Shown piece by piece: positions 2,926 through 64,000 of a DNA stretch of 64,000 nucleotides. Source of the DNA: Amoebophrya sp. A120. Taxonomy: Eukaryota > Protista > Dinoflagellata. The notes beneath the pieces are model-generated. The model ran no database searches and was not told the DNA's origin. It was given only the letters and a program-made list of their open reading frames with translations. Where the stretch lies: assembly GCA_905178155.1 (NCBI GenBank), contig CAJINV010000007.1, forward strand, positions 3,924,265 through 3,988,264, in the 5' to 3' direction. The number at the start of each line of letters is the position of its first letter. Positions within the stretch are counted from its first letter, which is position 1. The translations under genes and the position numbers were made by a program.

Positions 2926-4941
2926 ATGCCGCGGGACTCCCCCCCATTTCCCGCGTTTCCGCGCGAGGTCGAGAGCGGGCTGCACTTGAATGCGGTGCAA
3001 GAGGTTCACGACGGGATTTGGATCACTAACGCGGTCGGGTTGGCGTCGCGGGACTCGATTCTGCGGGTGAAGCCCAACTTGATAATCACGGTGGGGCAGG
3101 AATTCCGGCAGACCGGCCTGCCGCCCAGCATCCGCGACTTTTTCGCAAAAGACCCGTTAACACTAGGCGCTTCCGTATGGAACTGTAGTCAGAATCGAAA
3201 TTGACACAGTTGAAATCCTTTGTGATGCAAAAAATCGATACCGCTGGGACCGTGGGACCCACAAAATGTAGTCGGCGCATGACAAATTTTCCCCATGCTG
3301 CCGGAAGCAAATCCGTCATGCTGTTTAGGGCAAAGGAGCTCCCCTCTGTCATGCTAGGCAGCAGCCCAACAATGGACCCCTAGCAGGATTATAATCTGCC
3401 TCCCTTGCGTCCTCTGCAATAGAGTCACTTTTTGCGTCGCTGTTATATGCATTTGCGTTCGCCTTGCTACAGTGCTCTAGTACTCAAACTTCCCTGCGGC
3501 ATTTTATTTTTCAATATATGCATTTACAGGGATTCTTTCGACCTTGCTGATTTCGATCCTGACACTTCCATATTCCGCCTCCTTGGACGAGCTCGTCCCG
3601 AAGGACATTTTGGAGAAAGACTACCTCGCCTTCGGCCGGTATCCTGAGTAAAACCGATAGAGTGCCCATAGTTGTAGTAGTCCCTGGTGGGATGTTGAAC
3701 TACTTTACTTTGCTACAACATGAGAAATCTACCAACTGTGCGAGTCGTGCATGGCACTAATAAAGTTGGTTGGTCTATCTCGTGGCGATTCCGATTTTCT
3801 TTTAACTTTATTACAGCCGCATGATCAGAGTCAGAGACGATTCAACACATGTTGCTTCATGTTTATCTAAGTTAGAACATGATAACTTCCACAGCACGAT
3901 GAGATAAAAAGAATTCCGCTCATGCGTGGAAGCTGTCTAAGAGAAAGAGACTTGCTCCTGCACACCCCAAATTCGCATGACAAAGCCCTCCTCGTGGGTA
4001 TGTGCTTTTTACTCAGGATAGCCGACCATCGACGAGTGAAAAACTGGGCGACCTCGTACACGGCATCGAGGCGAATCGTATTCAGCACGAGGGGCAGAGC
4101 ACACATATGGAAGTGTCAGATTCGGAGCAAAATTGTAAAATGCGAATATATCAATCTTCTTGAGACGAGAGTAAGAGCCAAACCCGCTCCTCCTGGAGCA
4201 GACTCACAACCACGATCAACCTCGCTTGCCTTCGCTGCAAGGACGACAGACGCTTTCTGCTTCATAGCGTGATGTCCCGCTGTTCGTCCTGCATTTTCAT
4301 TCTGGACTATTTGCACCATAATTTTGCAACTTTCCACCTGACACCTCCATAAAGCAGAACGGGTTGGTACTCGGCAGCATCGACGGAAACAGCTGTGCCT
4401 ACTACAACGCGGGCAAAATTTACGAGGAGGATGAAAATAAAATCTTTTTGGAGCAGTGCGACCTGGAGGAGAAGGACCCCAATGGTCCTCCGGAAGACTG
4501 TGCGGAGGTACTTACCTATTCGACCTCCTGGTTGTGATGTTAAGTTGTACATGAATTTGGTGTACTAGGTTCTTTTGTACTTACACCGTTGTAGGACACC
4601 AGCACACTGATAGAAGTCGTGAAGTATTCAATCCCTTCGCCGTCCGCAAAAAAAAAAAGGTGAAAGCGTTGGAGTGTCTCGACGAGACCGTGCGGATCAT
4701 GGAACAGCGCATGGGCGTATCAAATGTAAAAATGTCTGGGTCTGGAAATTTGTGATGCTAAAATGTGCATGATGAAAACACTTCTGAATGCAGTCCGGTA
4801 TGACAACTTCCGAAAACGCTTTCTCATAGGCAATCCGCATGAGAAACTGCGTTTTTGCATGACAATGATGATGAGGTCGGATCGACGAGGTGCGTCAGGG
4901 GGCGTCACTCACTCATTCATTCATTCAGGGGGTCCGTCTCA

Positions 4942-4972
<31 letters not shown>

Positions 4973-6804
4973 CAAAAGAGGCTGCGACTCTTGTTGGTTT
5001 ATGCAATACAGATTTTCTAGGTATGGAAAGCTAGCATTACAAGTTCCAACCTTCCAGACCCAGACATTTTTACAATCCATAGGGCGATTGCACCGGTTGC
5101 AGGCCGGAGGGAGCGAGCTGTCTCATCGTCTGCGCTTCGGGGTGCAACAAGTCCGTCATGGTTGCGTGTGCGTTCATCGTATCAAATGCAACGGATTCTA
5201 TGTATCGTGTCTTCAGGCACAGAGAACAAATATGTTTGAAATTCATCAAATCACATATACTAGGCACGACTTCGACTTGCAATGCAAGATTTGCATCACA
5301 GTCTATCAACTCCAACTGGTGTACTTAGTTCAGTTCGTTGACTGGCAGCAAACAAGGAAGCGTTCTTGTACCCCTCTACTAGGCGGAATGGAGGTACTTA
5401 CTCTGCAACGCAGAAGATTATGTGCCTGTCAGTTCTTGCACAACCTGGCCGCGTCGTGGTGGTGGTGCATAGATTAACTAATTCTTCTCGCCTCCGTGCA
5501 GGAGGCCTCACTAGATGCATGCCTTTTAGGCAGCCAATCATCATGCCAAGCAACATCATTTCTCCTGCCGCGAAACGAACTTTACTGAAATCACCTGACA
5601 GACACAGACAGATAGTTGCATTGGATAAATGAACCGCTTTCGTCATTTGCCGTTGGTCGAGGCCTTTGAAGCAATCTGGCAGTATAGTGAATCTAATTTT
5701 GATTTTCTTACTCTTTGTGCACATGCATGATTGTTTTTGTTGTACTCGTCCCCGCAATTTTATCTTTGGCAGCTTTATTTCGTCTTCGAGGTCAAATAAC
5801 TCGAACACGAAGTCAAACCACATTTATTTGAAGATAGTAAATCATTTTGGAACGTTTCTTTGTAACACGAAGAAGGAATGAAAATCAGTAAAATTTTTAT
5901 GCATGTGTATCCTATCATCCTCAGAATCCGTCCCGGCGTTTGGTTGACCCCCTACTTGATGCGGCTGTGCAGCATCTACGAAGCGTCCCTGTTTCGCAAT
6001 GTGGTGCGGCGCGGTAAGGGCCTGATGCAGAGTTTGGCGGGCGGTAGCAGAAACAACGAAGCACTGCTGCAACAGATGGCGCACCAATTCCAGGCTGACG
6101 TGCCTTCGGTCGATCTGCAGGAGTACACCGCCATCACGGAGCAACATCGCCACATCCTCGACCCAATTCGCGAACTGGAGAGATCTTTTTTCGTTTCCGT
6201 GTTTGAACGTTTTTCTCAGCCTCCTCCGGGGGAGTCGCGGGTGGTCGGGGTCGAGAACAAGCCCAAGCAGTCCAGTTCTTCTTCCTCCTCCTCGCAGTCG
6301 ACCTCGACTACGAGAGAGGAATCAAAAACCGAAGTGGCCAGGGCGGTCGTGGACCACGACAAAGGCAAAGCTACGGTACAACTTGGACAGCATAACAAAA
6401 TGTTGAAACTGGACGGCGCACATCAAAACGTGAACAAAGAGCCCGTAGTGCTTCTCTCTGACCATGGGATGTTGCCCAAAGGAGGTCAGGATTTCATCTG
6501 TGGGCCAAGAGACACTAGTATCTAATGCAAAAGTATCGCACTCGTACTATATCGTTATTGCAGTCGTGCATGTTGACAGATCTATGGCCTATAGGCAAAT
6601 CAGCGTATATGAGTCTCACTGTCACCATGATTGTGTTGCATTTTATACGTCGTACAACTTGGTGCCACGATACTTTAGCATTCGATAGCTAGCACGACGC
6701 CGGAATCGGTCGTTTCGACCTCTTACCCGACAAGCGGGATACTAGATACCGGCGTTGGAGCTGAAGAAACGTCACCTCCCTCGCAGGGCAACTACAGTCG
6801 CTAA
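2926..6804 (+). CDS. Dual-specificity phosphatase-fold protein, about 9 exons, atypical P-loop
   Basis: Spliced exons give EVHDGIWITN...LDETVRIMEQ...CLIVCASGCNKSVMVACAFIMNRFRHLPLVEAFEAIWQIRPGVWLTPYLMRLCSIYE, matching the DSP layout (HCxxGxxRS...AYLM...RP...QL..YE). Stop TAA at 6802-6804 after the last introner. Confidence 0.75.
3176..3572. mobile_element. Introner, family A (TATGGAAGTGTCAGGATCGAAATC-type TIR)
   Basis: TSD TTCCG (3171-75 / 3573-77), imperfect TIR. Removal gives LGAS-ASLDELVPKD. Confidence 0.85.
3640..4020. mobile_element. Introner (TATCCTGAGTAAAA TIR)
   Basis: Perfect 14-bp TIR, TSD GCCGG/GCCGA. Removal gives FGR-PSTSEKL. Confidence 0.85.
4106..4351. mobile_element. Introner, family A (degenerate)
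   Basis: TATGGAAGTGTCAG ... CTGACACCTCCATA ends. TSD not recognisable. Confidence 0.65.
4718..5081. mobile_element. Introner, family D (TATCAAATGTAAAAATGTCTGGGTCTGGAA TIR)
   Basis: TSD GGGCG (4713-17 / 5082-86). Removal gives RMG-DCTGCRPEG. Contains an (ATG)10 microsatellite at 4942-4971. Confidence 0.9.
5180..5627. mobile_element. Introner (TATCAAATGCAAC / GTTGCATTGGATA ends)
   Basis: 13-bp TIR with 1 mismatch, between AFI and MNRFRH of the DSP domain. TSD eroded. Confidence 0.6.
6519..6687. mobile_element. Introner, family H (TATxxxTGCAAAAGTATCGCACT TIR)
   Basis: TSD ACTAG/GCTAG. TIR related to elements at 13891 and 25537. Confidence 0.75.
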
Positions 6805-13441: not shown

Positions 13442-13627
13442 TACTCACGCGGGAGGACCGAGCTGTGTTGCTTTCGCACGCAAACTACTTGGCTCTTGCA
13501 TAGAAAGAAAGTTTTACAGGAAAAGCAAGTAAAAAGAAACTCACGTGGTTACCAACAGACCTGAGAGGAAAAAGCGTAAACATGATCTTCGTCAAAAAGA
13601 ATTGTCTTCACACCAAGTTTTAACATC

Positions 13628-16444
13628 ATGGCTGGTTGTCTTCCTCTCCTGTATTGTTGGCTTTTGGTCGCGCTTTTCTACGTCTTTTTCCTGGCATTTC
13701 TCGCCTACCAGGCCACTTTTTTTGATTCCTTTCATGACATCCTGGGTTCCTGTTCGGAAGCCCACGCGGCGAATCCGGTCGTCACCGCATCCGGAGGAGC
13801 TGGTTTTGACCTGGATAGGTTCTCCGGTGACTGGTACGAGGCGGCGCGGATCGCCAATCCGTTCGAGACCGAGCCAAATTGGCTGGACCGTATGCAATGC
13901 AAAAGCATCGTACTAGTATGAATTGCATATACAAATTTCCTCAGCGTGACAAATGCAGTTTGTAATGCTGTTTTACCTTAGGAAGAAGATTTGTCATGCA
14001 TGTTTGCAATTAGTACGAGTGCGATACTTTTGCACGTGATAGACCGGTATGATCTCCTATTTGTGACTGACAGCGGAAAGGACCACGACACGGAGTTGCA
14101 GCACGACAGCAGCAGCGCGAAGCGAGGGATCGATAGAGAAGGTGGATCATCTCTATTGGCGAACAGCATACAAGATTCGGATCATATCTCGTCGCGGTCC
14201 TCACGACAAAGTCAACGACAAAGAACCTCAACGTGGTCCGAGAAACTTGTAGTGCGGTTGTTTCAGCAACTATTCGACCACGTACCGGGGGGAGTCGTCG
14301 TGGATCGGGTTGCAGCACCAGCTCCAGTAGATCATGAAGAAGATCAGGGGCATCTTGAGCGCGGCTCTCCCGGCGAAAAGCAGGTTTCTAGTCGCGCCAA
14401 AGCACGACCAGCAGCAGCAGAGTCAGAGGCGACGGATGGTGCCGCGCGACGTCTTCATCCAGTAAAACTAAAAGAACTACAACACCTCCGGCCACAACAA
14501 GCAGTAGCAGATGAGCAGGGCCAGATGAGGGCTCTGTTGCAAGAACCTGTAGTAGTTCCTGTTGGTACTACGACAGACACTGACAAATCTTCACGAGCGC
14601 GGAAGGCACCACCACCAGGTGTATCTATTTATTCACTGGACGATGATGAATTCGAGTATCACGTCCACAATCCGACTGTGTTTCACTATTCCCGGTCTCT
14701 CCCGCCACCGGGTTCCTGGCTTGTGAACTGGCTAGACCCGTGCTTGCTACACTTGCCGTTCCAACTTAACATCCCGTTTTGCGACGACGACAGTGTGCTG
14801 CAACCTGCGGCGGAGCGCAGACCAGGAGTTTTGGAGAAGAGCACGGACAGAGAGGACGATGACGAACTTCTCGCACAAGCGATTGAGCAGGCAGATGAAG
14901 TCGATCATGCAGAGAAGAAGTCAAAGTCTACTTCAGCACTACCAGCAGGGGTTGTGGTCGATGTGCCGCGTGAAGGTGGTTACCTCCAAAGAGGACAACT
15001 GGATGACAACCCCGACGGCGAGAAGATACACCCGAGGACTACAGCTGCGACCAGGGTAGAGCCAGGTTCTGGCACAGCTGAAACTGCAGCAGCGGAGGAC
15101 GTAGTATCTTCTTCACGACCACCCGCTGGATCTTCAGGAAAAGGAACTGAGAAAACGGAAAACAAACACAATCATGATCCGCAAGAAACTAAAGAAACTG
15201 AAAGGACACCAAAATTACTATTTTCCTCCGGGGAGAAGGAGAACATCCACATTACAGATAAGATTAAGAAAGGCGTGGACCCCTACCTGCGTCTGCGCAT
15301 TCGTTTGCCCAATAACCTCGTCTGGACCGAGCACGACGCGATTCTCAAATGTGCCCCCGCAGACCCGATTCCCGACCCGGCGACGAACAGCTCCAAGCCG
15401 TCCGGTAAACTCTCCGGGGACTGCGAGGCGCGGTTTTCGTGGTTCCCCATTTTGTTCCGGCACACGGTGACCGCTACGGACTATGAGAGCTACGCAACCC
15501 TGTATAGCTGTTTCAGCTTTGGTGGGATCTTCAAGTACGAGTACGCGTGGGCACTGGTGCGGCATTTACCGCCGAGGATCTTTGTGAAAGACAATAAAGA
15601 AGTTGATTATATAGGTGTTACTGACAAGCATCGGCGGAAAATAAAAGCAGAGCAAACATACGCTGCGATGGTGGCCGAAAATGTTGCGAAAGTGCAGAGC
15701 ATCGTCGGGACCGCTCGACGGTTTATCTTTCCGCGCTTAGTGGAACATCAAGACAGTGGTGCTAGAAAGGAAGTGGAAGTTTCAGGGGACCAGAAAGTAG
15801 AGGAGCATCTGCTTCGAGAAGCAGAGCTGCTCGCGTTGACTCCCACACATCTTCAGCAGAAGGTGGATATTGGAGAAATGCAGCAAGAAACTAGAACTGA
15901 AACATCAAGAACTAATTCGTCGACAACCAGAGCTGGAAGATCAGACGAGCAGAAAGATCTGTTTCAAGATAGGGCAGTACCAACAGACAGTATCCAAGAA
16001 AGCGAGAACAAGGTGAACAAAATTGACAAAGGAGTCAGAGGACAAGAAGCGAAGGTTGAGGCATCTAGTACAGCGTTAGGACCGCAGCCGCGAGTAGAGG
16101 CTACCACAAAAATGCAAACTCCAAAATACTATGTCGAAGATGAAATACAAGAATGCATGCCTCTTACAGGACCGCCGGGAGCAGAAGTGCTGCAGCCGCC
16201 TTCGCTCCGGGTGACAGCTGACGTCGAAGCTGTCTCTCTGTACATCTTCACGGCTCCTTCCACCGGATTTTTCATACAAAATCCGGGCTATTGTTCTTTT
16301 CAAGTAGGAGTGGGTACTACTTTCTCGTTTCCGTTACATCCGGCTGCTAGCTTCTATAATCGGCGCATTAATCTACTCCCGAAATCGTGTACGGCTCCAG
16401 AGGTTGAGCGAGAGAGCACGGAAGATTATGAGGTAAATATATAA
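13628..16444 (+). CDS. Lipocalin (Blc/ApoD-like) with N-terminal hydrophobic segment and a very long internal insertion
   Basis: SCR1 FDLDRFSGDWYEAARIANPFE (about 13805-13870) and SCR2/3 VTATDYESYATLYSC...YEYAWALVR (about 15465-15565), joined across the introner at 13891. Confidence 0.8.
13891..14041. mobile_element. Introner, family H
   Basis: TSD GACCG (13886-90 / 14042-46). Removal gives WLDR-YDLLF. Confidence 0.85.
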
Positions 16445-48488: not shown

Positions 48489-49723
48489 CCTTAACGACGT
48501 CTTATATGCGGACTTACTTGTTCCTTTTCCACCGGGTCCGGGATTTATTTGACTCCTGTTTGCGTCTGGCGATTAGAACTGCTCTAATTCCTTCAACATG
48601 AGTTGTGCCAGGATCATGTTTAAAAAATTATAGGGCTTGTTTGACTTTTCACCTCAAGAACTCTAGGCTCGACTAATATAGTGGCGAACAATCTTCATGA
48701 TCTTCACAACAGTTTCAGGGTTCGTGCAGCGAAGTTTGCAAAACTGTCAGATTCATCGCGCGTTCTGATCTTGACTTCGGGGTGGGTACGTTTTTGCACA
48801 GGATACCTGATCCGGAGGCGGGGCTAAGGAAGACGACGGCGGTGCGGGGATAACGACCACGGGGGGCGGCGCTGCAGCTCCGCTCGGGTCGTTGGCCGGC
48901 GCGTCAGACGGAGGGGGGCGGAGTAAAGATGCCTGAAACCGAAAGTGCCGGGCTCTACTAGCGCCACATTATAATATGTTGTCCGTCTGCTTTTTACCCT
49001 TTTTTTTCTCAAAGTCAAAGAAAAACATACTTTTTCACGACACCGATGAAAGCGATTCAATTATAGTTGTAGTATCAATCTAGAAAAGTTTTCGCAGTAG
49101 TAGCTAGGTAGTAGACTTTAGATAGCAGAATTTTTTAGAGAAGAAACGCACGGGGATCTCGAAAACATAGGCGCTCGTCGAAAATTGGCGGAACTAATAG
49201 GCCGAACAGGTGCCCCCGTACGAAATTCGTTGTTGACTAGCTGCTACTTGAAAATGTAGCGGCGCACCCGTACCGCTGCAAGTTAGTCAAGGCGGACGAG
49301 CAGACCTCGGGCCTTTAAAACAAACGCACAAGCACATGCCATTCACCTCCTCTTCTATACATTGTATACGACGTTGTACAACTTCTTTCTCAGCCGATTG
49401 CGATAAGAATAGCTCTCTGGAGAAAAGCGGTGAAAAATTCCCTGACTCCAGCCCACCTGTGTGATGAATTGTATCAGTATCAAATGACCGATTTATTACT
49501 TCAGAGCTCTCCTCTTTTCGGAGTCGGATTTTTTTGAACATCGAAGCAGACCTTGATCTTCGCAGATTCGCATCAATATAATTCAAGCAGTTTTCCGCAT
49601 ACCATTGATTAGCCAGAGGCCAGTGCTATCGAATGAGTGACGACATATTCTATTACCGCCCATTGTCCCAACCCGCCATGACCAGGCCCTCCGTTGAAAA
49701 CTAGATGCGCAGGAGCAATAACT

Positions 49724-50740
49724 ATGCAGGAAGTACCAACTAAGCACACCACCGAAGATAGTGTCAATTCAGAACTTCCGCCGCACTTCTCGCAGTACGA
49801 CCCCCCCCGAGAAACTGAAACAAAACTAGCGACCGAAATGAAGACCATGCTTGAGGATATAACTCAAAGTTGTTTTTACAAAATGAAAAAGAAAAAAGTC
49901 TAGGAAAATTAAGTTTGATTGCCGCGCATCATAACCTCAATTCTTCGTCGAACTGTGTGATATAATTAGCGATGTTCAACTCATACATTGCCTGGTCCAC
50001 GCATTTGTTGCAGAACGTCCGTGATCTTCTTCCGGGCTTACTTTACTCGCAGATTGCTGCTCTTAATGAAGCCCGTGCAAATTTCGCAAAGTAAAAAAGG
50101 ATCACGAGGAACATGATATTAGGGATCTAGAAGGATCTGCAACTGCAAGAAGGTACTATATTATATGCGAAAAAGTTGAAGTCCTATCTACCGAGTCGAG
50201 TTGCTCGAGTGCGACCCTCGCGAGGGACTTTTATGGGACGAGCTTCCAACAAGTTGTCTTTGTTCAACACACTGACACGGTTGAATAAAGCCAAACAGCG
50301 ACGCACGGTATAACGGTATTGTTTATTCATAGATCTTCAGAATCCCTTGCTTCTCGTTCCTCGATACTTGTGGCACATAGCCTGCTTAAAAAATGTTGAC
50401 ACGGATCTTCTTAGTAGACGACAGTGTGAGTCAATGTATTTGTATGGTAAAATGAGGACTCGACACACACACACACGCGACACATAATTGAGCTCACCTT
50501 GAAGATAGATGGAGACGAAATTCAGTGTGACTATGATCATGGCATATCTATGCTCTGAGATGCAGATGCGCAGCTTCAAAAAGAAGATCCTCTCCCTCCT
50601 TCTACTCTAAACGCCCCAGGCCTGAGGCAGCGTCCAAGGAAACCAGAATCAGGTCCTTTTCGGCCGAAGATGATCTTTTCTTATTTCTCCGCCAGCGACA
50701 GTGCACTTCACTTCGACAGTGTGCAAGTAACTACAGGGGA
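49724..50740 (+). CDS. Possible small multi-exon hypothetical protein
   Basis: Coding-like exons MQEVPTKHTTEDS...MKTMLEDI, QNVRDLLPGLLYSQIAALNEARANFAK and DADAQLQKEDPLPP. Junctions unresolved. Confidence 0.35.
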
Positions 50741-51008
50741 GCGAAGCAGTGTGTTGACGTAGGAGATATATATTCGTACCCTTTGCTCGTGTTTTGTTTC
50801 TTTCACAAGACAAATTCTATTGGCGATGTTCCATCTACTAAGTCTCCGCATCCGTCGTAAGGACCAGGGGATTTTCAATCCGTGTGGCTGCACAAGAATG
50901 TGAATTTACGCTAGTATGCTATATTGTACTTAGCATATAATCTTTATGAGCATGAGAAAGTAAGTGTTAGGTAGTGTATCACGATAGGCCAATACCGAGG
51001 AAAACAAA

Positions 51009-54000
51009 ATGAGCGGGACGCCAGCTGGTGCTGCATCAGCTTGGGACTTCAACCTGCACTACACACCCAACACGGTCGCCGCGTTCGCGAAAACAGCCTC
51101 CGTATGAAACAGAAGCTCTCAAACGTTGCATTCTTTGATGCTGTTCTCTCATTTACATGATTTGCCATCCTTGCAGAATTGCCAGCAGCGTCGTCGCGTT
51201 CACACGATCAAGCTGCTTCGCGTCGCAAGTTTAATGGCCTGAAGATTTTTTTTATTTTTCAAATTTGTCTATAAGGCAAAACGTGCAAAAATAGTACTTA
51301 GCATCAAACTCCCTCCTTTCATTTCCGCGATTCTTGCATCAATCGGCGGGATTATAGCATCAATGTAGTGACGTCGTTGAGATGTCGAACAACTCCATAG
51401 GCCGAGCGTTTTGGGTATGCCGGGATCGCGATGAACTTCGAAGTGGAAGACCTGGCCGAAATGGAGGAACTTTTGTGCATTTTGAAAGAGAAAAGCCTCG
51501 AAGAAGAGACCAGAGCAACCGCGCCCGCGCCCGCTGGTAGTACGACCAGTAGACCAATGGGAAAAACTACATCGATGCTCTTGTCATCTTCAACATTATC
51601 CTCTTGTAGTACTACGTTGAAAAAGAACAACTACAACATCCACGCGACCACTGGTGGAGCAGGAGCAAAAGCTACCGGGAAGGCGAAGTCGCAGTTTCGC
51701 GCCCGTTTTGTCCAGTTTGTGGAGGAGTGCGATTTGGAGAGCTCGCGCTTCTTGGAGGAACAAAGGAGCCGCGTTTTGATGAAGAGCAGGCACGAAGGTC
51801 AGGATGGTGAACGGCAAAAAGTTGCTCGTCCTCGTGAGATGAAACAACTGCAGGCGACGACGAGTACAGCCAGCTACAACAGATTCGTCGACAAAAAGAG
51901 TGGTAGTAACGATGGATCAAAGATGAAAATAAAAACGCCCCCTGCAGCTCCGCCTGCCGATGTGCTGAAACGCGTCACGCTAGTCCACGATGGGGCGGCA
52001 GTGAATTTCCACCGGAAAACGGACTTGATTCGGGAAATCGCAACCTTGCTGCGGCGCCGAGCGTCCAGTCAGAGAAACGGGAAGAACATAGAGACAGCCA
52101 CTATATCATCCGCGTTTCGTGGTGGCCAGGAACAGGAACAAAGTACACCCCTGGCGGAGCACTTCCCTTCTGATGGTCAGCAACCGGATTCGAATGGACA
52201 AACGAAAGCCGAGTCCTCGACCTCTTTAATTCGGAAGCAAGGTCAGCTGCACCACTCGTCGCGATTGCTACCAGCGACCAAGTATGCTTCGAAAATAAAG
52301 TATAGTACTCGTATAAATATAATTAAATGCGTGTCTTGCAGCAAGACAAATCTCTTTTTTTCCCTTAATGTGCATGACAAATTCAATTTTTCTTCGTTGA
52401 AAAAAATTTTTCTTCATGCAATGCTGTGTACTAGTACCAGTACGCAATTACTTTTTCTATGCATACCAAGCGAGCCAAGAAACAAGAGCTGGAGGTCGTG
52501 CAGGCAGCAAATAGAAGTACTGAAAATAATAAAAGCCCACTGCACGACGACCACCGGGTGGAAAATGGGCGGTCCTTCACCACTAAGCCGTGGCTGCTGC
52601 ACAAAAATTATGCCAACGCGCAGCGCCACCCCTGGTGTGATTTCTTGGTGGCCATCCGTCCCGTATGAAGGTACACAACAACTCCCCCTTCCCCTCATTT
52701 CTCATGCAGATAAAACGCAGCTCCAGCACAGCCACTGCCTCATATCTTCGCTATTACCTGGTATGACAAATTTGGGCAGAACCCAATCCTTACTACAGTC
52801 TGCCCGCATGTTTGTCATGCAAAAGCTACATTTCGATTATTTCTGACCTTGTTTCTATTGCTGTTCTTGCTTTCAAATGAGGGGAAGAGGCAGCTTTGCA
52901 CACTCATATTCCGGGAGCGACCAGGCACTGACGGAGATCGCGAACCTCGGAGGCGGTGGAACGACAAATACGCTAGAAAAAAACTGTGTAAGTGTAGATG
53001 ACACCTGTAAAAATGAACAAGCACACGATACAGCAACGGTATACAGTTGTCACGCTAGCCAGCCGTTATCCTGAAATTACCATCCTGTGTTCATGATATA
53101 CATACTTTTTCAAGTACGAAAATGAACTTGGTAATAAGAGGCTATAATGTCTGTTGTCCTGGAGAAGAAATAATGTGTCATGTTATCACTCCAAGACGCC
53201 TACACTGACACAGTTTTTTTACTGGATAACAAGCGCAATCGGTTCATTATCCTCTTTACCCGGCGGAAGCACGTCCGCAAACGCGCCGCCGTTGTTTGAT
53301 CTGCTAGCCCTTCCCCTGGAGCAGCCGGCAACGAGCGCAACCGGGATCCGCATCTTGCGGCCTCAGGTAACCGCTTTACTCGACCGAAATCCAGCGCTCC
53401 TGTTTGAGGTATCGGAGAAAAAAAGATTGTAGCTGCAACTTTATTTTTGCGAGTGCGAGAAGAAGATGAAGAGCACCACATCGTGCAAACAAAAAAAACT
53501 GGCCATGCGCAGCTAGTACTTTTTGTGAAAACACAAGCGCGGCGAGCCTATTATGCATGTCCAGCATGATTATGCCAAGTGTACTACTGAAACTGTCTTG
53601 CCCCCTCGCCTGCAAGATGAACGCAAATTTACACGAGCAATCTCCTCTTTCTCCTGCATATGAGGTTCCTTTCGCGCACTGCCTGCGCGCCGAGCAGGCC
53701 GATCAGTTTCGACATTTTTTTCAAAATTTGCAGAAGCTGGCCCGGCTCACGCACGGCAAGCACTGCCTTCTCACCTCCGGAGCCCGAGCTCCGGCCGTAT
53801 CCACTGCAAATTAATATATCTGGGTCTGGAAGTAGAATGCAGATGCTATGCGTCGTGCTGTTTCTGTATCTACCACACGAGGGTCTTGTCTTGAATGCAC
53901 GCAGAGCATCAGAGGCAGGCTTTGCGGACGCTTTTCCATGATACCCTCTCCGAGAGACCCCTCTTTTGCATGTGCAGACGAGACCATGAGCATGTAACAC

Positions 54001-54622
54001 AGATTTTTGCCTGTTCCAGATCTTCCAGAATCTGCATCCTTTGTTCGGATCCAGATGACATATTTGCAATGCATAGGCCGAGCAGCGGTCCAAATTTGAC
54101 CTGGTGAATTTGGCGTACGTCTCTGGGGTGCTTCAGGTCCAGCACGCGGTTACCCTACGTAAAAGTATACTCGCTCCAGTAAGTACGTGTACGTAATTCG
54201 AGAAGTTTATTCATTGAGCGACAAGCTTTCATTTTGCAAAACTGAAAATAAATGGACAGCCCGGTGGTCATCATGCAGAGGACTGAGGGGGCCATCTGGA
54301 ACTGTGTACTTAGTATGAAAACGCGTATATTGATTAAGTATAATCTTTGGCATTTTGTTGATTTTTGCAGTTGCAGTGGACACAGATACAAAACATTTCA
54401 ACGAGTGTAGTGATACTTTTGCAGAGGATCGCGGAGCGTCACCTACAGCAGGGCTGCCGAAATTTCGGCTTACTTTCATGTTCGTATGGTGATGCGGCGA
54501 ACTTGAATGGTGGAGGTGGACCAGCAGGAAGGGGCAACAGGACGCACGTCTCAGTTGCCAATCATAGTACTACCTGCGCAAATTTTTATGCACCGGCCCC
54601 GGTAGGGGTCGTGCGATGCTAA
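51009..54622 (+). CDS. RPP30: RNase P/MRP subunit p30 (Rpp30/Rpp1) with low-complexity insertions
   Basis: WDFNL...ERFGYAGIAMN; LKRVTLV; DFLVAIRP-GS; FDLLAL; LFE-VPFAHCL...FFQNLQKLARLTHGKHCLLTSGA..PA-EQRSKFDLVNL. This follows the RPP30 motif order (GY..IA.N, RLT, D..AVRP, FEI.Y, GK..IISSGA, LR...DV.NL). 3' end approximate. Confidence 0.75.
52283..52465. mobile_element. Introner (H-like, eroded)
   Basis: TSD CCAAG, TATGC...GCATA ends. Removal gives ATK-RAKKQE. Confidence 0.8.
52664..52908. mobile_element. Introner, family B
   Basis: TSD TCCCG/TTCCG. CTTCCCCTCATTT / AAATGAGGGGAAG IR. Confidence 0.85.
53410..53660. mobile_element. Introner
   Basis: TSD TGAGG gives canonical GT...AG. TATCGGAGAAA / TTTCTCCTGCATA ends. 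Removal gives LFE-VPF. Confidence 0.8.
53798..54075. mobile_element. Introner, family D/E
   Basis: TSD GGCCG. TGCAAAT..ATCTGGGTCTGGA / TCGGATCCAGAT..ATTTGCA. Confidence 0.88.
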
Positions 54623-55382
54623 AAGTTGCACGCTGTACAACTAGTGCTTAGCTTTTACGATCTGTTCAAACCTGCGTGGTAATACCTACCAGCGACCAGG
54701 AGCGCGGACGTATGTCATGCGCTTGCGCATGCATGCATGAGGTTTTTGTTTCACGCGGTCATTGGCCTTTTTTTGTTCCTACTGAGCAGTGATTCTTGTG
54801 CATGCTGCACACACCCGAAAGAACACGATTGATGTCCGACACGACGCCCCCAATAGCAATAAAGGGGAAAATGAAACGCAAGGCCGCGACCACTCGCAGA
54901 ATGAAACAAGAACTACAAAGAGTGACCCTTGCGACTGTTTTTAGACTCATGATGCTTCGCTCACCTGTTTACCCCAAAAAACCTCGACGCATGTTCAACT
55001 TTTGTCGGAGCAGATGCAGATTGAGCAGATGCAGACACAGACTATTCTTGTTGCATTATGAAGATTATTGTCTGATCAGCTGGTTCTTGTCCTTGTCCTT
55101 GTCGTGTTTAGGTCGCTTCTTGTGATGTTTCGTTCCACCATACCAGGCAGGCAGCTCCTATGAGTTGCTGTCGATTCTTGTCTTTTTCATCTGCTAGTCG
55201 GAGAAAAAGTACTTAGCACTTTTCTCCAGATGACATCTGCATCTGGAGGAAAGTGTTACTCTTTCTTGTTCGTCCGTTTTCATTGGTAGACTTTGTTCAT
55301 ATTCGTTCGCTTATCTTTACTTTGCTACCGGTAGTTTTTCCGAACTGAGAAAGAGAAACCAATGGGAAAAATCGAGTAATCT

Positions 55383-57180: not shown

Positions 57181-60100
57181 ATGTCGCGCCGCCTTGTTCT
57201 GGAAGCTCTGCCGTTCTTTATTTTCATGGGTGCGCTCATCTTCAACCTCATCTTCGAACAAATTTTGACTTTTGTTCCGATGAAGGATCATAGACGACCT
57301 CCTTTAGAAGAGACACATCAGTCACGACCCACTTCTGCCGTTATTTTTGTTACCGCGTCTATTGCTATTACGGGGGAATTCGTTTCGCCCTTCTACCTCA
57401 CGACGGCGTCCTCAGAGGGCGTCAGCCTACCTTCAGGCAACTTCGCTCATGACCACCCCCTGCAAAGGCCGTACCCGGACCTATGGGTGTGTCCGGATCG
57501 AAATCCACAAAGTTGAAATAGTTTGTCATGCAAACATAAAATGGATACCAGTACTATTTGGAGGCAGGCTCAATTTCAAAGAGGCGCCTGGCAAATTTTC
57601 CGACCACCCGAAATCTAATTTGTCATGCTGTTTGGGCAGAGAAGCTAGCTTTTGCCACGCTGGTTTAGCAGCTCTATCTCAAACTTAAACCCTATTAAAC
57701 AGGCCCACAATCAGCCTCGCTGGCCATCCCTGAAAGACAGGCACATCATGCTTTGTATTTTATGTATGACAAATTATTTCAACTTTGTGGATTTCGGTCC
57801 TGACACTCCCATAGGATCACAGCCCGGATTTGTCTGACCTGACCAAAGCCGAGGACTCCGGCGTCTGCCACAAGAAGGAGGTCGATAGCACCAGCGAGGA
57901 ATGGTGGGAAGTGTCGTTCAAGGATAGCGCGGCGCGGAACATCACAGGTTTTGTCCTCTTCAAGTACCCGCCCGCTACCCCTTCGTCTCCTGAGGGAGCA
58001 CTAATTTACTTGGATGGCGCGACCGACGCCGCCGCTGCTACTGTGCCAGCTCTGCAGAACGACGGCGGGGGAACCTGGGTGGCGATCGGGCAAACCGCAC
58101 ACAGCATCCGCATCACGCGGTCTGCGGGGTCCTTCATCTTCTGTGGGTTCTGGTTGTTCGTGGCTTCGGGTGGATCCTCCTGGCCGCCTCTGGGTCAGGA
58201 ACCCAACCTGCCGGTGGGGACCTCCGGCCGCTATGTGTACCCTGCGTTCCTGACGACCTCTTCCGCAGCGGATTATAGCGCCATGTATTCTCACGAACAT
58301 GCGATCCGCCGGAGCCCCTCCCTGATCTACCCATTTTCTGTGAACGCAGGTCACAAGGTGTGCTCCCAAACATTCTCCCCCAATGATTGGTGGCAAGTGG
58401 CTTTCAGGGACGGGGTTCCGCACAGTCTGTCGGGTTTGGTTATCTTCAGCAAGTCCACAGGTCCTCAGAACACCTACCTAGATATCGGCGGAGTAGAGGT
58501 GTACGTTGACCGAGCGCAGTGGGGCGTGTTGGAATCATTTCCCAGTTTTCGGCTCCCGTTGGCGATCGACCCCCTTGGCACCTGGGTGCCCATCCACCGC
58601 CGCGTGACCACGGTGCGCCTGCATAGAAAGGAGCTGTGGTTGACCTTGTGCGGCCTCTGGCTGTTCGAGGCGGAGAGCCCGTTGGAGGCAGAGTCGGTGT
58701 ATGCAAGCGCTGCGCCCCTGGATCACCCGAACATCCCCGCGGGGACTGCGGGCCGGTTCATTCCTCCCGGGGAGCTCTTGGTCACCGCGTCCAGCGAATG
58801 GGGCACCGATGTACTCCGAAGGGACTTCCCCCTCCGCCGGGCAATGCCCAACGACTGGTATTTCTTCGGGACACTGGGGGGGTCGTTCGACTCTGGCCAG
58901 TGTTTTGCGTCCTTATTGGATACCGGCGCGGACGAGTGGTGGGAGGTAAGTTTCACCGACAACGCCCCCCGCCAGCTTTCTGGTTTTGTGCTGTTCGCTC
59001 GTGACATTGGGATCACATCTGACGCCTCCAGGATCCACAATGCCGATGTTCACCTAAACGGGGACAATTCCCGGGTTGCCTTCACGCTGCCGAGTTCGGT
59101 CTCTGTGACCGGAAGCTGGGTCGCGCTTCCGGTTGGGCTCCCGATTTCCAGCATCCGCATTAAGAAATCTGACGGCTTGGTTTTCTGCGGCTTTTGGATG
59201 TTCGAGAACGCGCCGCCTTCCGCAGCGGACTGGTTCTACAATGGCACCACCCATGCACCGGCCCGGCACTACTTGTCCACCAAAGTTCCCGCCGGGACCG
59301 ACGAGGACCTGTTTTTCATAGACGGGCATACCAAGCTTGGTCGGTACGGTCACTGCGCCGACCAGACATTTTATTGACGGAAAATAAAAGTGGTCGAGTG
59401 GTCACAGACCTCTTGCAACAGCAGAACCAGAAACACACTGCCCTGGTGCATGACAGAGAGAAAATAGACTTGCAAAAGTGTGGACGTGGAGGTTAATAAG
59501 AATAATAGGGGACGAAATGTTAAACATGGATGAAACGAGTCGAGGCTCGCAAGCAATCCCGGGTTGATATCAAAGGCAGCTGTCTGTGTCTGTCTTGCCT
59601 GCTCACTACGGCAAGGAGGTGTAAAAACTGTTCTTACGTAACCAAGTGCAGTTACCACGCTTTTTTTTCCCTATAGTGCGGAGCACCTCTTCCTCCCGCT
59701 ATGCAATACAAATAATTTCCCGTACATCTACGAGATGCATCACAAATTTCTCCAATTTGGACTGTAACACTTGCGATGCCATAAAAAAACTAGGATCGGA
59801 GCCAGTGTTTGTCATGCTGAGACCGCATTTGTTTTACTCTTATGTACGTGTGCGGGAAATTTTAGTTTACTGTGGATACCCCCTGAACGAGGACACCACC
59901 GCCGAGGGATGCGTGGCTGCCAGTAGCCGGGTGGGCGGCGGCCTGGTCGCTGTGTACAAAGATATGGGTCCAGGAGAGTGTTGCTGTATCGGCACGACGC
60001 GAACGGCCTTTTTCAAAGCCAGTGGAAGCGCTAGTTCGAGGGACGTGGATTACGGCTTTGTGGTGGAGGGAACGTCCGCTGGCGAGTGGGATTTGACTTT

Positions 60101-63100
60101 TTACCCGAGTGGCACGTGGATTAGCGCTCCCGCTGGGGTGGTGAGCGCTGGCCTCTTTGGTCCCTGTGCTGGTCGCGTTCTTTCCGACCTGACAGACCAG
60201 GGAGTGAATGAATTGTACCTCGACTCGGACGAAGCCTTCGATGGCAGCGTGGACGCCTGCGCGCTGCGGGCTTTTCAGGTGCACGCCAAGTATTTCACCA
60301 TTGGAAACGAGAACAATGCGGCCTCGGTTTGCTGCGCGGTGTACCTGACAGACGCGACGCACAACGGTACGCTACCACTAACAATCTCCGGGCACCTACG
60401 ACTTTTTCAACTGCACGGCCGGTCGAACTCCACGGCCGCGGATGAGGTTCTACGTGCGCACACCGCCGGGCTGTATCCGCTTGCCGGCCTCGCGCATGTC
60501 AAAGCGACCCAGTATTCGACGTTCGTGGACCCCCTCACTGGGGTGGCGTACCACGCGGATCTCCCGCTGCGGCGCCCCTACGACGACCTTGCGCCGGTCG
60601 ACTACTGGTCCGCGAAACAATTTTGCGCGGTCGGTGCGGCCACGACGGCGGCGGGGAGCGAAGCTGGCTGGTGGGAACTGGAGTTCGTGGACCAAGTGGC
60701 TCGACCGGTTGCGGGGTTCGTCTGGTTTCGCCATTTTACGAACTGGGACACGGGGTATCTATCAAATGCAAATAAAATATAAGCAGTATGCTTGGGTCTG
60801 GAAGAAGACTGCAAGGTTCGTCATGCAGGCTTCGCGCATGTTGGCCCAGATGAAGAACGTGGGGAATTGTACGAGCTGCAGCATCCAAAGTTTTTGAGAT
60901 GGCTCTCGCTCTGCAAACGCTAACGCAATACCTATCCTGAATGAGAAACGCCATCTTGTTCGGGTGCTGGCCAAGAATTGGCGGCTTTTGCTGCTCACGC
61001 AATACAGATTTTTGCGTCCTGATTCGGTTGGTAAGTAGCGCAATCTGTTTTCTATTTCAATACAGATTTTTGCATGACAAACTCCGATACTTGCAGGCCC
61101 AGACAAGTTTGCAATGCATAGCATCTGGACAGTGACGACCCGATGCTGGGTGCCCAGGTTTACGTGGACGGTTTTCGCGTCTTGCACATTGACACCGTGA
61201 ACAGCACCGCGAAGCGCGGGCAGTGGGTCCCCTTTCCCAACGCCCCCCTTCTAGCGAAAAAGTTGCGCATTGTAGCCCGGCGGGACGCCGCAAACCCCTT
61301 GCGGCTCTGCGGATTTCATTTGTATCTCGCGGGGGACGTGTCTGCGGCCGCAAGGGCAGGAGCCGACGTGGCACCGGGCGGGGGGCCCTTTGAAGACGCC
61401 GCGCTTTCTACCCGGTCCTTGATTGAGGGGGGTGTGAACCGCCACTACTGGTTTACCGTTGCCGATTTCACGGTGCAAATGAGGAACCCCTCCGGCTGGG
61501 CTCAGTTCGGCATATACGGTCACTGTAGGAGCGGTTTCTTAGGCAACCTGTATACAGAATCGAACGCGGAGGATGGTGTCACGTTCGAAACCTGCGCGGC
61601 CGCAGCTGCTGCGGTCGATGGGCGTGGAATGATGATGATGAAAACCGACTTATCTTCCTGTGTAAAAACACCCCCACACCATAGTTGTAATGCAAATCTT
61701 CTGCATGCTGAAAATATTCTGCGGAGCCCCATAAGAGGCATTTTCTAGTCGCGTTTCGGAATTTGTCATGGTCCAATGAGCATGACGCGCGAGATCTCTG
61801 ATGCTGCTGAACTAGCTAAACAGGACTACACTATGAGGCCAAACTTGTCATGCGCGACAGCCCATCCGTTCGGTCCTCAGTAGGTAGCCCCACAATTATG
61901 GGGCTCGCCAATATATTTAGACGGTGGGTGACCCAATCGGCAGAGAGCACTGCCACCGATCCACCGATGACGATGATGAGTCCTTCCATCTTGACTATGG
62001 GGTCGGGACGTTTTTCCTCAGGATACGACTCCGCAGCTTTGGCGTCTGCCGGCCTTCCCGCTGATACGACTACTCCGTGTTGCACTGTCTACACCGGTGC
62101 CGCGTTCCGCGGAGTTGCTTTTGGTAGTGGTAGTAGTTGGAAAGTTCACTATAGCCATTTGATTCACATGGACCCTGCCTCGACGGGCGCCTGGGACGTG
62201 ACGCCGATCCCCTACGGCGGATGGATGGATGAAACCGACAATACCCACGACCACTACGGCCCCTGTGCTGTGCTTGGCGCCACGGGCACGCTTTTCACCG
62301 CCACCGGCGGCACGTACGACAACACCGTGGACCCCTGCGCTAAGCTGGCTGCGGAGAAAGGAAAGACGGGCTTCCTCATTGGGAACCACGACGACCCCTC
62401 TTCTCCGTGCTGTACACTGTATGCGGAGACCCAAGGGGACATGCGGTGGGGAGAAGAGGCGATGCCCACTGGAGGGAGTGGGGTCGCTTTTTTCTACCGC
62501 GTGTACAAATTGAACGGCCCGTCGCTGCTTACGGGCGCGAACCGCGTGCCTGCGGGGCTGGTGCCGCTGGCGGAGGCCGACGTCCGCCGGTTGATGGCCA
62601 CGCAGAGCTCGACCTTCACGGACCCTTTTTCCGGCAATATCTGCACCGCGACGAACCCATTGCGCCGCCCGTACAATGACGTTGTGCCGGTAGACTTATT
62701 TTCGTCGAAGCAGTACTGTGCGGTAACTGGGGCAGCTGCGTCCACAAATACGTTAGGGAAAACTGTCCCCACTACCGCGGTTTTCCCCAAAGAGAAAATT
62801 TTTTTTTCGATCCAAGGGCGACCAGAATGAGCCCTGCATAGCCGACCTACTCCGCGAACAGCCGAGACGCGAAGCCAGGTCCTCCCGGTGGGCTGCTTTA
62901 TGGAATGAAAGAAATTAATTAGCTAGTGGCGCGCATTAACTATATTTGCAGATCTTGCATCAATATTTATTTCATTTGAGAAAGGCCTTCACGCTCCGGC
63001 TTCCGGGCCCAGCTTGTCGACCATCCCCTCGGGCAGACCAGCATGGCGACGGTCTCCGGGTCCGATCTCCATGAACCTCGTGTAGAACTGTTACCGCGGA

Positions 63101-64000
63101 CGAGGTAACAGAGCAGCAGTATCTTCTCCAGCAACGTGTCCGCGATCAAGCAGGCCCAGGTGATGCAGTTAAGCTTCGCCGCCGTACCGCAAACCCGGAA
63201 AAAGCCGACATAACTACAAACATGAATGCAAATTAATCTGTCAAAAAATAATGCTTTAGTTTTTGTGCGCCACTAGCACTAGCTAATTAACTTTTTTTAA
63301 CTTGCATATCAACCTCGGGGATTATCCTCCTAGGAGAGCCGCAGGTGGATGCCGTCCGGGCAGGTTGCGAAGCCGGGCATCGTGGGGCTGCGCCAGTGCG
63401 TGAAAATTTTTTCTCTTTGGGGAAAACCGGGGTAGTGGGGACAGTTTTCCCTAACGTAACAAATAAACCATGGTGGCAGGTGGAATTTTCGGACGGCAGA
63501 CCGCGGCTCTTGGCGGGATTCCTCTGGTTCCGCCACTTCACAAACCTTGACGCCGAGTTCTCGGAGACCGCGGACGCCATGAAGAACGCTGCCGTGTACG
63601 TCAACGGCGTCCAGGTTGCCACGGTCACGACGGTGGACGCCGCCGCCACCCGGGGGCAATGGGTCAACTTCGACCCGCCAGTGTATGGTTCGAAAGTGCG
63701 CTTGGTGGCGGGGAGCGGCTCGACTGGCCGCCTCCGCTTTTGCGGGTTTCACTTGTACCTGAGCGCCGACGCCAGCCTTGCTAGCACCGCATCGCTGCAG
63801 CTGAGTGCTGTTTTGTTGTTATTGTTTCTTTTGGGTCTGAGCCAGGATACGGCCACATCAACGACGGACCCAAGGAATGTCAGCGGGTTCCGCGCCCTTC
63901 CACGCAACGTAGCCGCGGTGGACTTTGCCGCGCCGGCCTTCTATGGCCCCTGCCCCAACCAGGTGGAGAATCACCGGCTTCTGCCGACGAAGGAAGCGGA
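57181..64000 (+). CDS. Large secreted/surface protein with at least 5 F5/8C/fucolectin-like (galactose-binding fold) domains and Cys-rich PAN-like modules; runs off the window
   Basis: Hydrophobic N-terminus. Repeated unit (T.SS...PLRRPY...C......WW[EQ]V.F.D...R...GF..F...V[YH][VL][DN]G...G.WV......R.....CG[FL].L) near 57.4, 58.2, 58.8, 60.5 and 62.6 kb. YGPC...C...A....F.IG....CC..Y modules lie between. Fold assignment is by motif resemblance only. Confidence 0.7.
57482..57813. mobile_element. Introner, family A (332 bp, intact)
   Basis: About 50-bp imperfect TIR, TSD GGACC/GGATC. Removal gives RPYPD-HSPDL. Confidence 0.92.
60760..61120. mobile_element. Introner, family D/E
   Basis: TSD GTATC/GCATC. 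Removal gives TGY-LDSDDPMLGAQVYVDG. Confidence 0.85.
62749..63458. mobile_element. Introner, TACG.. family (710 bp)
   Basis: 50-bp TIR TACGTTAGGGAAAACTGTCCCCACTACC.CGGTTTTCCCCAAAGAGAAAA (1 mismatch), TSD ACAAA. Removal gives AASTN-KPWWQVEF. Confidence 0.95.

What the first reader, a model, noticed from the sequence alone, without database searches (positions are those of the whole stretch)
3171..63463. Genes riddled with TIR-transposon introns sharing one rule: 5-bp TSD + TA...TA, mostly without GT-AG
Seen: over 30 insertions from about 8 TIR families, nearly all starting TAT/TAC, ending ATA/GTA and flanked by a 5-bp duplication. They interrupt conserved domains (PP2C, TM2, P-loop region, RPP30, lipocalin, DSP), and deleting the element plus one TSD restores the frame. 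Many (TSDs CGCAA, CACGA, CATCA, GCGCC, ACAAA) give no GT-AG in any register. Established: non-canonical introner introns with inverted and direct repeats have been reported in Amoebophrya genomes, so the phenomenon itself is probably not new, but as far as I know the splicing machinery and mobilising transposase are unresolved. Inference: these introns are removed by a structure- or end-guided mechanism, and a TA-terminated element with a 5-bp TSD does not fit the DNA-transposon superfamilies I know (Transib has a 5-bp TSD but CAC ends).
Basis: partly seen in the sequence, partly recalled or inferred. Interest (0 to 1): 0.9.

Follow-up and report, generated by a model that had tools for sequence, protein, structure and literature searches.

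The report
Transposon introns cut by fixed ruler
Genes of a marine parasite (an Amoebophrya) are packed with small jumping elements already known to act as introns; assembled transcripts show them cut out at one fixed offset from their ends without the usual GT-AG signals, likely by a modified spliceosome that measures distance instead of reading the intron's last letters.

Summary
I count 51 TIR elements (7 multi-copy families, 12 singletons, 24% of the window), with 5-bp TSDs and TAY...RTA ends. The closest named protein relative is from Amoebophrya. The phenomenon is in print (Farhat 2021), and Gozashti 2025 already lists '5-bp TSD, TA/TA termini' for one A120 family. Spliced contigs from one sample remove 23 elements as element+5 nt; a DNA run reads through them. 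One element is instead bypassed through an alternative GT-AG pair. Not found in the texts I could read: all 20 joints fit one register, from 1 nt before the 5' TA to 4 nt after the 3' TA. Four with decayed TSDs fix it exactly, so the TSD is not needed for splicing. In these 20, +2U, +3A and -7A are invariant; +1 and the last four bases are free. Best reading (inferred): a relaxed major spliceosome reads nUA as donor and places the acceptor by distance. A euglenid-like non-spliceosomal route is the main rival. TA..TA ends match IS3EU/GingerRoot (normally 6-bp TSD), so the ends do fit a known superfamily; no transposase was found.

The parts
3176..3572 (+). element, family F4, TSD TTCCG, in DSP-like gene
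   Evidence: frame open after removal; no RNA laid here
3640..4020 (+). element F5, TSD GCCGG/GCCGA
   Evidence: no RNA laid
4106..4351 (+). element F4, TSD ACACA/AAGCA
   Evidence: no RNA laid
4718..5081 (+). element F1, TSD GGGCG
   Evidence: no RNA laid
5180..5627 (+). element F1, TSD decayed (CATCG/AATGA); 3' end less certain
6519..6687 (+). element F2, TSD ACTAG/GCTAG
13891..14041 (+). element F2, TSD GACCG, in lipocalin-like gene
   Evidence: same element present in L001
18575..18800 (+). element F3, TSD CGCAA
19846..20086 (+). element F3, TSD CGGGG/TGGGG
20167..20281 (+). element F6, TSD CACGA
21502..21617 (+). element F6, TSD GGACC/GGACA
24873..24984 (+). element F6, inverted relative to 20167
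25049..25380 (+). element F4, inverted relative to 3176
25537..25703 (+). element F2, TSD TCAGG/TCACG
25793..26019 (+). element F3, TSD TGAGG (gives GT-AG at -1/+4)
29830..30060 (+). element F3; intron CT..CC; register -1 or further left
   Evidence: RNA joint 29823>30060
30264..30513 (+). element F1; intron 30263-30517 AT..AG, register fixed exactly
   Evidence: RNA joint with no slide
30655..30953 (+). element F1; intron 30654-30957 GT..GC, TSD decayed, register exact
31012..31216 (+). element F2, TSD TCGCG
   Evidence: RNA joint
31332..31557 (+). element, singleton, TSD CGGAA
   Evidence: RNA joint
32090..32294 (+). element F5; intron 32089-32298 GT..TC, TSD 5/5 decayed, register exact
32348..32612 (+). 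element F1, TSD CATCA, near-perfect TIR
   Evidence: RNA joint
32645..32989 (+). element, singleton; intron 32644-32993 GT..CC, TSD 5/5 decayed, register exact
33713..34100 (+). element F3 inside TM2 domain
   Evidence: RNA joint
34162..34355 (+). element F2; intron CT..TT
   Evidence: RNA joint
35360..36405 (+). element, singleton, 1046 bp, 48-nt TIR, TSD CAGGA, in small-GTPase-like gene
36473..36795 (+). element F5, TSD GCGCC; 97.7% identical to 47878 over 266 nt
36849..37245 (+). element F4, TSD GGCAG
37280..37618 (+). element, singleton; intron CT..CG
   Evidence: RNA joint
37744..38107 (+). element, singleton; intron TT..AC
   Evidence: RNA joint
38617..38803 (+). element, singleton, TSD TTCTC
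38843..39019 (+). element F2, TSD CGCCG/CGCTG
39077..40209 (+). element F4, TSD TCGGG, carrying a nested element
39341..40149 (.). nested element F7, TAC..GTA, TSD TTTAT, 809 bp
46605..46859 (+). element F3 in PP2C; intron TT..CG, register -2 or -1
   Evidence: RNA joint
46955..47224 (+). element, singleton, in PP2C; TIR decayed
   Evidence: RNA joint
47557..47830 (+). element F1 in PP2C
   Evidence: RNA joint
47878..48277 (+). element F5 in PP2C, TSD GGAAG
   Evidence: RNA joint
48387..48805 (+). element F5 in PP2C gene; intron AT..TG
   Evidence: RNA joint
51103..51399 (+). element, singleton, in RPP30-like gene
   Evidence: contig pieces
52283..52465 (+). element F2; in the one contig seen it is bypassed by GT 52300..AG 52535 (236 nt, in frame)
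   Evidence: piece ends at 52299; model length 2163 equals contig, end-precise model 2211 does not
52664..52908 (+). element F3
52969..53228 (+). element, singleton, TSD ACAAA/ACAAG
   Evidence: contig length and piece start 53229
53410..53660 (+). element, singleton, TSD TGAGG (GT-AG at -1/+4)
   Evidence: contig pieces
53798..54075 (+). element F1, TSD GGCCG
   Evidence: contig length and piece end 53792
54151..54430 (+). element, singleton (F2-like); intron TT..GG
   Evidence: joint inferred from record coordinates
57482..57813 (+). element F4, TSD GGACC/GGATC
   Evidence: no spliced contig over this gene
59700..59878 (+). element, singleton, TSD CCCGC/CCCCC
60760..61120 (+). element F1, TSD GTATC/GCATC
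61651..62025 (+). element F5, TSD CGACT
62749..63458 (+). element F7, TAC..GTA, 56-nt TIR, TSD ACAAA
   Evidence: no spliced contig here
29537..34717 (+). TM2-domain host gene: 10 element introns + 3 GT-AG introns, 601-aa ORF
   Evidence: one 1963-nt contig equals the in-silico model length
45073..49890 (+). PP2C host gene: 5 element introns among ordinary introns
50942..54981 (+). RPP30-like host gene: 7 elements

Best explanation
These are non-autonomous TIR transposons that serve as introns and are cut from the transcript at one fixed register (1 nt before the 5' TA, 4 nt after the 3' TA), likely by a relaxed major spliceosome, and they are likely moved by an integrase-type (IS3EU/GingerRoot-like) transposase encoded elsewhere. 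Shown: removal equals element plus 5 nt, which restores the pre-insertion mRNA; the register is -1/+4; the TSD need not be intact; no AG is needed. Inferred: the element's terminal TA supplies +2U and +3A of a donor that looks like the genome's own GUA donors, with +1 taken from the TSD and free to vary. The paired TIRs bring the two ends together. The acceptor is set by distance from the element's 3' end, possibly from a branch at the invariant A at -7. Because both ends are alike, an insertion in either orientation and at almost any target gives a removable intron.
For: All 20 RNA joints skip element+5 nt and fit register -1; registers -5, -4, -3, -2 and 0 fit only 7, 8, 9, 13 and 13 of 20; chance of one shared register about 3e-6 if each intron chose freely among six. 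Four joints cannot slide and are all -1/+4, two with 5 of 5 TSD bases different. A blind test on the 19 non-GT-AG joints finds TA at intron offset 1 in 19 of 19 (about 3 expected by chance at a given offset) and the pair (1,4) in 15 of 19. In the 20: +2 T 20, +3 A 20, -7 A 20, -6 T 18, -5 A 18; last four bases mixed. All 6 GT-AG introns read from the same contigs begin GTA. G at +1 in 25 of 48 against 31% background, p 0.002. Departures are uneven: +2/+3 never, +4 six times; -5/-6 three times each, -7 never, of 49 (p about 0.03 each), which a purely symmetric stem would not predict. 17 of 20 are predicted to pair their first and last 30 nt (11 or more expected pairs) against 0 of 6 ordinary introns. 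Copies sit in both orientations. The DNA run reads through the elements. Farhat 2021 found U2, U4, U5, U6 and 83 of 89 spliceosomal proteins in A120, U1 undetected, and all 9 commonest A120 non-canonical types have T second. Fixed branch-to-acceptor distances of this size occur in yeasts and excavates. TA..TA ends are the IS3EU/GingerRoot signature.
Against: No lariat, branch or spliceosome data were available. From recalled knowledge, characterised spliceosomes need G at +1 and AG at the end, and the bases around A-7 match the usual branch consensus poorly. The invariant 5' TA in the non-RNA elements is partly built in by my scan, and the counts are small. G at TSD position 5 (25 of 50) is not significantly above C at the mirror position (16 of 50), p 0.10, so the G bias could be a target preference. 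Three of 20 spliced elements lack a predicted end stem. Published A120 family counts show N-T donors in 68-71% but also A-N acceptors in 65-69%, which this rule does not predict; register or strand choices of the annotation could explain it, untested. Element 52283 used an alternative GT-AG. The RNA evidence is contigs from one sample whose RNA status is the tool's guess; raw reads gave 8 and 3 reads and no element joint. No transposase was found, and the TSD is 5 bp, not 6.
Confidence: 0.58

Rival explanations
1. A spliceosome-independent route, as proposed for euglenid nonconventional introns: a nuclease recognises the TIR stem, cuts at staggered fixed positions (1 and 4 nt from the stem base) and a ligase joins the exons, releasing a circle.
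For: Fixed geometry around a stem, any base at +1, no AG; 17 of 20 predicted stems; U1 undetected; euglenid introns have TIRs, TSD-like repeats, a longer 3' overhang and leave as circles (review section).
Against: Invariant +2U/+3A equal to ordinary donors here; uneven conservation of the two arms; three spliced elements without a predicted stem, one with duplex z 0.3.
Confidence: 0.25
2. Spliceosomal, but the register is not really fixed genome-wide; several registers or cryptic canonical sites are used and this window over-represents one.
For: Farhat's legends call splice sites variable relative to the hairpin; published acceptor counts have A at -2 in about 68%; one alternative GT-AG case; only 15 of 46 and 15 of 33 joints were displayed.
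Confidence: 0.1
3. The joints are artefacts: reverse-transcriptase template switching across hairpins between direct repeats, or DNA from which the elements were excised.
For: Hairpin plus short direct repeat is the classic setting for false introns (recalled); the runs are only guessed to be RNA; one sample.
Against: Four joints share no repeat at all; the same contig also drops three GT-AG introns and yields a 601-aa ORF; the DNA run shows no such joints; retention would break PP2C five times.
Confidence: 0.05

Closest known systems
Amoebophrya A120 introner elements (Farhat et al. 2021, PMC7789003; Gozashti et al. 2025, PMC12130899)
   Same: IRs start TAT and carry an A run; 3-5 nt direct repeats; about 240 nt; no GT-AG; many per gene; fam38 listed with 5-bp TSD and TA/TA termini. 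The nearest named protein relative is Amoebophrya AT5.2, 64%.
   Different: Those texts call the borders variable or unknown and give TSD lengths of 2-6 or more by family. Here one TSD length (5) and one register (-1/+4) cover all families, and TSD identity is dispensable. The strain was not established by a call.
IS3EU/GingerRoot DNA transposons (PMC10045372, PMC6839031, PMC12730594)
   Same: TA..TA termini; TAYGG..CCRTA in fungal IS3EU matches family F4 and 35360 (TATGG..CCATA).
   Different: TSD usually 6 bp there, 5 bp here; no transposase seen.
hAT5 (PMC12730594, passage)
   Same: 5-bp TSD.
   Different: Termini not given in the passages read; no hAT transposase seen.
Fritillaria borealis non-canonical introns (PMC13326754, PMC11282704)
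   Same: MITE-derived introns escaping GT-AG, handled by a changed major spliceosome.
   Different: Preferred ends AG-AC/AG-AT and duplicated U2AF; here +2U/+3A are kept and the 3' end has no preferred dinucleotide.
Euglenid nonconventional introns (PMC11282704)
   Same: TIR stem joining the ends, TSD-like repeats, no canonical ends.
   Different: Pairing +4..+6 with -8..-6 and circular products; here +2 pairs with -5, products unknown.
Polarella/Symbiodinium, Micromonas and Aureococcus introners (bioRxiv 2020.10.14.339549, PMC11282704)
   Same: Splice sites built from TSD and element end; Polarella class 12 has a 5-nt TSD and joins the last TSD G to the element's first base.
   Different: They need G[T/C/A] and AG, so only some targets work; here almost any target works.

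Membership tests
Amoebophrya A120-type introners | IR starting TAT, A run near position 11-14 | tested here: met
   TAT 43 of 51; A at intron +13 in 40 of 48; definition
Amoebophrya A120-type introners | 3-5 nt direct repeat at the borders | tested here: met
   5-bp exact in 22 of 51, 1 mismatch in 19
Amoebophrya A120-type introners | removed from mRNA with non-canonical ends | tested here: met
   19 of 20 joints have no GT/GC-AG in any register
Amoebophrya A120-type introners | repeated families | tested here: met
   7 multi-copy families; two copies 97.7% identical
Amoebophrya A120-type introners | host is Amoebophrya | tested here: inconclusive
   nearest named relative Amoebophrya AT5.2 at 64% for one protein; genus likely, strain not shown
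IS3EU/GingerRoot | TA..TA termini | tested here: met
IS3EU/GingerRoot | 6-bp TSD (usual) | tested here: not met
   0 of 51 with an exact 6-bp duplication
IS3EU/GingerRoot | integrase-type DDE transposase in an autonomous partner | not testable with these tools
   no genome held; no transposase family among 74 window ORFs scanned
hAT5 | 5-bp TSD | tested here: met
hAT5 | hAT transposase | not testable with these tools
   no autonomous copy in the window
Ginger1/Ginger2 | TG..CA termini | tested here: not met
   all 51 start TA; definition
U2-type spliceosomal intron | GT/GC..AG ends | tested here: not met
   1 of 20 RNA joints; AG at the end in 3 of 48
U2-type spliceosomal intron | lariat and U2/U6 dependence | not testable with these tools
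   needs experiment
U12-type intron | AT..AC ends and U11/U12 snRNAs | tested here: not met
   AT-AC possible in 1 of 20 and only at register -4; minor snRNAs reported absent
euglenid nonconventional intron | end-to-end stem | tested here: inconclusive
   predicted in 17 of 20
euglenid nonconventional intron | circular, non-lariat product | not testable with these tools
   needs experiment

The most novel reading that the evidence does not exclude
The three-base transposon end TAT/ATA encodes both splice signals: read forward it is the nUA donor, read at the other end its first A is the branch point, and a U1-less spliceosome joins the exon exactly 7 nt on with no AG. An IS3EU-like transposon with a 5-bp stagger thereby makes a perfect intron at any site and in either orientation.
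Probability: 0.3. Interest if true: 0.88.

Novelty: already known. Interest (0 to 1): 0.6.

Why it matters
More than 60% of introns in Amoebophrya A25 and A120 are non-canonical and how they are spliced is stated as open (PMC7789003). A single register turns an apparent chaos of splice motifs into one rule (N-UA ... A-Y-N-NNNN), allows exact re-annotation, and gives sharp tests: a branch at A-7 against circles, and point mutants at +1, +2, +3, -7 and the last four bases. If spliceosomal, it would be a spliceosome that needs neither G+1 nor AG. The IS3EU/GingerRoot resemblance tells where to look for the missing transposase.

Tried and rejected
No whole genome was held, so no genome-wide tally or transposase search. 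Pfam on 18 long ORFs and 56 ORFs from long inserts: no transposase or integrase; only a PPPDE peptidase and two sub-threshold hits. Candidate 42977-44258 (TAC..GTA, exact TSD, 289-aa ORF) rejected: weak TIR, low-complexity ORF, no Pfam. Two TIR patterns in viral contigs: 0 matches each. Rfam on the window: 0. X7 and X8 behaved as low-depth DNA and gave no second-study check; the 9 displayed joints from X5/X7 are links between repeat copies. The gene at 57-64 kb had no spliced contig, which says nothing on its expression. The metagenome scan gave one locus, with no empty site. Earlier scan notes: nothing. Published donor counts were considered as support for the register and set aside, as they fit a mix of -1 and its mirror equally well. 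A seed-based end scan was too noisy to count from and its output was cut. Pairing between +1 and the last intron base: no consistent rule. Transib and U12 readings rejected on ends.
Full report
Observation. The elements are real. Exact 5-bp TSD plus TA..TA ends with a TIR score of 8 or more occur 16 times against 0 in each of 5 shuffles. With family matches and RNA joints the list reaches 51 elements, median 270 bp, covering 24% of the window; 22 have an exact 5-bp TSD, 19 one mismatch, and none an exact 4, 6, 7 or 8 bp duplication. They form 7 multi-copy families and 12 singletons; copies lie in both orientations and two are 97.7% identical. I left out 38177-38334 (end uncertain) and 42977-44258 (judged chance). 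Single exons hit PP2C and TM2 clearly, and RNase P p30, lipocalin, DSPc and a P-loop weakly. The nearest named relative of an intron-free PPPDE gene is from Amoebophrya AT5.2 at 64%, so the genus is likely; the strain was not shown.

Are they spliced? Contigs of runs X1 and X3 (one sample, RNA by the tool's guess) skip both ordinary GT-AG introns and elements. One search displayed 15 of 46 joints: 12 elements and 3 GT-AG introns. One search displayed 15 of 33: 5 elements and 1 GT-AG intron from X1, and 9 repeat-to-repeat links from DNA. The TM2 gene spliced in silico is 1963 nt, the contig's length, with a 601-aa ORF through 13 introns. The DNA run X5 reads unbroken through the elements. One exception: the RPP30-like contig is 2163 nt, which fits only if element 52283-52465 is bypassed by GT 52300..AG 52535, in frame; end-precise removal would give 2211. 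Raw reads were almost empty, so efficiency and retention were not measured.

The rule. Every one of the 20 joints skips the element plus 5 nt, and 19 of 20 allow no GT/GC-AG in any register. Where TSD copies have diverged the cut can be placed. Four joints cannot slide and all begin 1 nt before the 5' TA and end 4 nt after the 3' end (30263 AT..AG, 30654 GT..GC, 32089 GT..TC, 32644 GT..CC); two of these have no TSD base left in common. All 20 fit register -1; the others fit 7 to 13; the chance of one shared register under free choice is about 3e-6. For decayed elements I set the 3' boundary with the joint in view, so I also ran a blind test: TA lies at intron offset 1 in 19 of 19 non-GT-AG joints and the pair (1,4) in 15 of 19, the best of all pairs. 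In this register +2 T, +3 A and -7 A are 20 of 20, -6 T and -5 A 18 of 20, +1 is G9 A5 C3 T3, and the last four bases are mixed. Over 48 elements AG ends only 3 introns, the chance rate.

Mechanism. Shown: removal, register, independence from TSD identity and from AG. Inferred: who cuts. The six ordinary introns read from the same contigs all begin GTA, so the element's TA completes a donor of the local kind. G is enriched at +1 (25 of 48, p 0.002) but not significantly above the mirror position (p 0.10). The two arms decay unevenly (+2/+3 never, +4 six times; -5/-6 three times each, -7 never, of 49), which suits two different signals better than one symmetric stem, but numbers are small and the 5' TA is partly built into my scan. 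End-to-end pairing is predicted for 17 of 20 elements and 0 of 6 ordinary introns; three spliced elements lack it. A120 keeps U2, U4, U5, U6 and 83 of 89 spliceosomal proteins with U1 undetected (PMC7789003). Fixed branch-to-acceptor distances of 2-4 nt between motif and AG are known in Yarrowia, Candida, Trichomonas and Giardia (PMC2483917), which would put a branch A at -6 to -8 by my count. I therefore favour a relaxed major spliceosome with a ruler-set acceptor (0.58) over a euglenid-like nuclease and ligase route (0.25), a non-fixed register (0.10) or an artefact (0.05). Against my reading: no lariat data; recalled knowledge says spliceosomes need G+1 and AG; and published A120 family counts show A-N acceptors as often as N-T donors (65-69% and 68-71%). 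A half-and-half mix of -1 and its mirror would give about 63% for each, so these counts neither confirm nor refute; in this window 12 of 20 joints exclude the mirror.

Mobility. No transposase lies in the window and no genome was held. TA..TA ends are the stated signature of IS3EU/GingerRoot, integrase-type transposons with usually 6-bp TSDs (PMC10045372, PMC6839031); fungal IS3EU end TAYGG..CCRTA (PMC12730594), as do family F4 and 35360. The TSD test fails (5, not 6), so I call them IS3EU-like in their ends, not members. hAT5 has a 5-bp TSD and remains possible. Gozashti 2025 notes integrase-like similarity in A120 fam38 and files it 'Ginger; 5-bp TSD, TA/TA termini'; the term IS3EU does not occur in that table.

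What is known. Farhat 2021 describes these introners, with TAT-starting IRs, and its legends call the splice sites variable and the borders unknown. I did not find the fixed register in five searches on Amoebophrya or dinoflagellate introns. Seen: PMC7789003 abstract, passages, sections 10-12, supplement part 2 and Table S4 rows; PMC12130899 passages, one small supplement sheet and all 58 A120 rows of supplement file 8; PMC11282704 passages and section 6; passages only of bioRxiv 2020.10.14.339549, PMC12730594, PMC10045372, PMC6839031, PMC2483917, PMC13326754, PMC11453091, PMC6004678; PMC12166617 a term search with 0 hits. Not seen: any figure, including Farhat Fig. 3 and S19-S23, which may show the same offset as a mode; bioRxiv supplements; subscription papers such as the journal versions of Roy 2023 and Henriet 2019.

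Verdict. The elements and their TSD/end pattern are already known. The register rule, its independence from the TSD, the +2U/+3A/-7A pattern and the IS3EU link appear to be additions, from 20 joints in one sample. They make an open question directly testable. Interest 0.6.

Noticed in passing
39341-40149 and 62749-63458: The two TAC..GTA copies both end CTAACGTA, which holds a textbook branch motif (recalled) with its A at -9; they lack the A at -7. One is nested inside another element; the other lies in a gene with no spliced contig. The 809-bp copy matches the length and TIR size listed for A120 fam38/fam196, not checked by sequence.
   Followed up: partly
55377-56544: Intergenic element with TA..TA ends, a perfect 21-nt sub-terminal inverted repeat, 109-nt tandem repeats and two internal palindromes; very high summed depth in the DNA run.
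   Followed up: partly
22258-24720: Long intron starting G-TATG with about 2.3 kb of GC-rich, apparently multi-copy sequence; no Pfam hit in its ORFs; its 3' border was not resolved.
   Followed up: partly
34162-34173: The element's first 11-12 nt equal the start of the downstream exon instead of the family consensus, as if overwritten by conversion.
   Followed up: no
whole window: The motif GTCATG/CATGAC occurs 48 times in 15.5 kb of elements and 25 times in 48.5 kb outside, shared across families and in both orientations: a candidate transposase binding site.
   Followed up: partly
L001:1-2911: A 98%-identical metagenome contig joins window 12719-14645 directly to 8665-9678 over 8 shared bases (rearrangement or misassembly) and carries element 13891 unchanged.
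   Followed up: partly
30263-30517: An old element intron whose downstream TSD copy now ends AG; several old ones have G at +1 where the exon copy has not. Possible drift towards GT-AG with age; 6 of 12 position-5 mismatches have G in the intron.
   Followed up: partly
17856-18154, 20904-21095, 26071-26826: Further probable decayed elements, not resolved and not counted.
   Followed up: no
56956-64000: Large GC-rich gene with internally repeated extracellular-looking units, no Pfam hit in three long ORFs; runs off the window.
   Followed up: no
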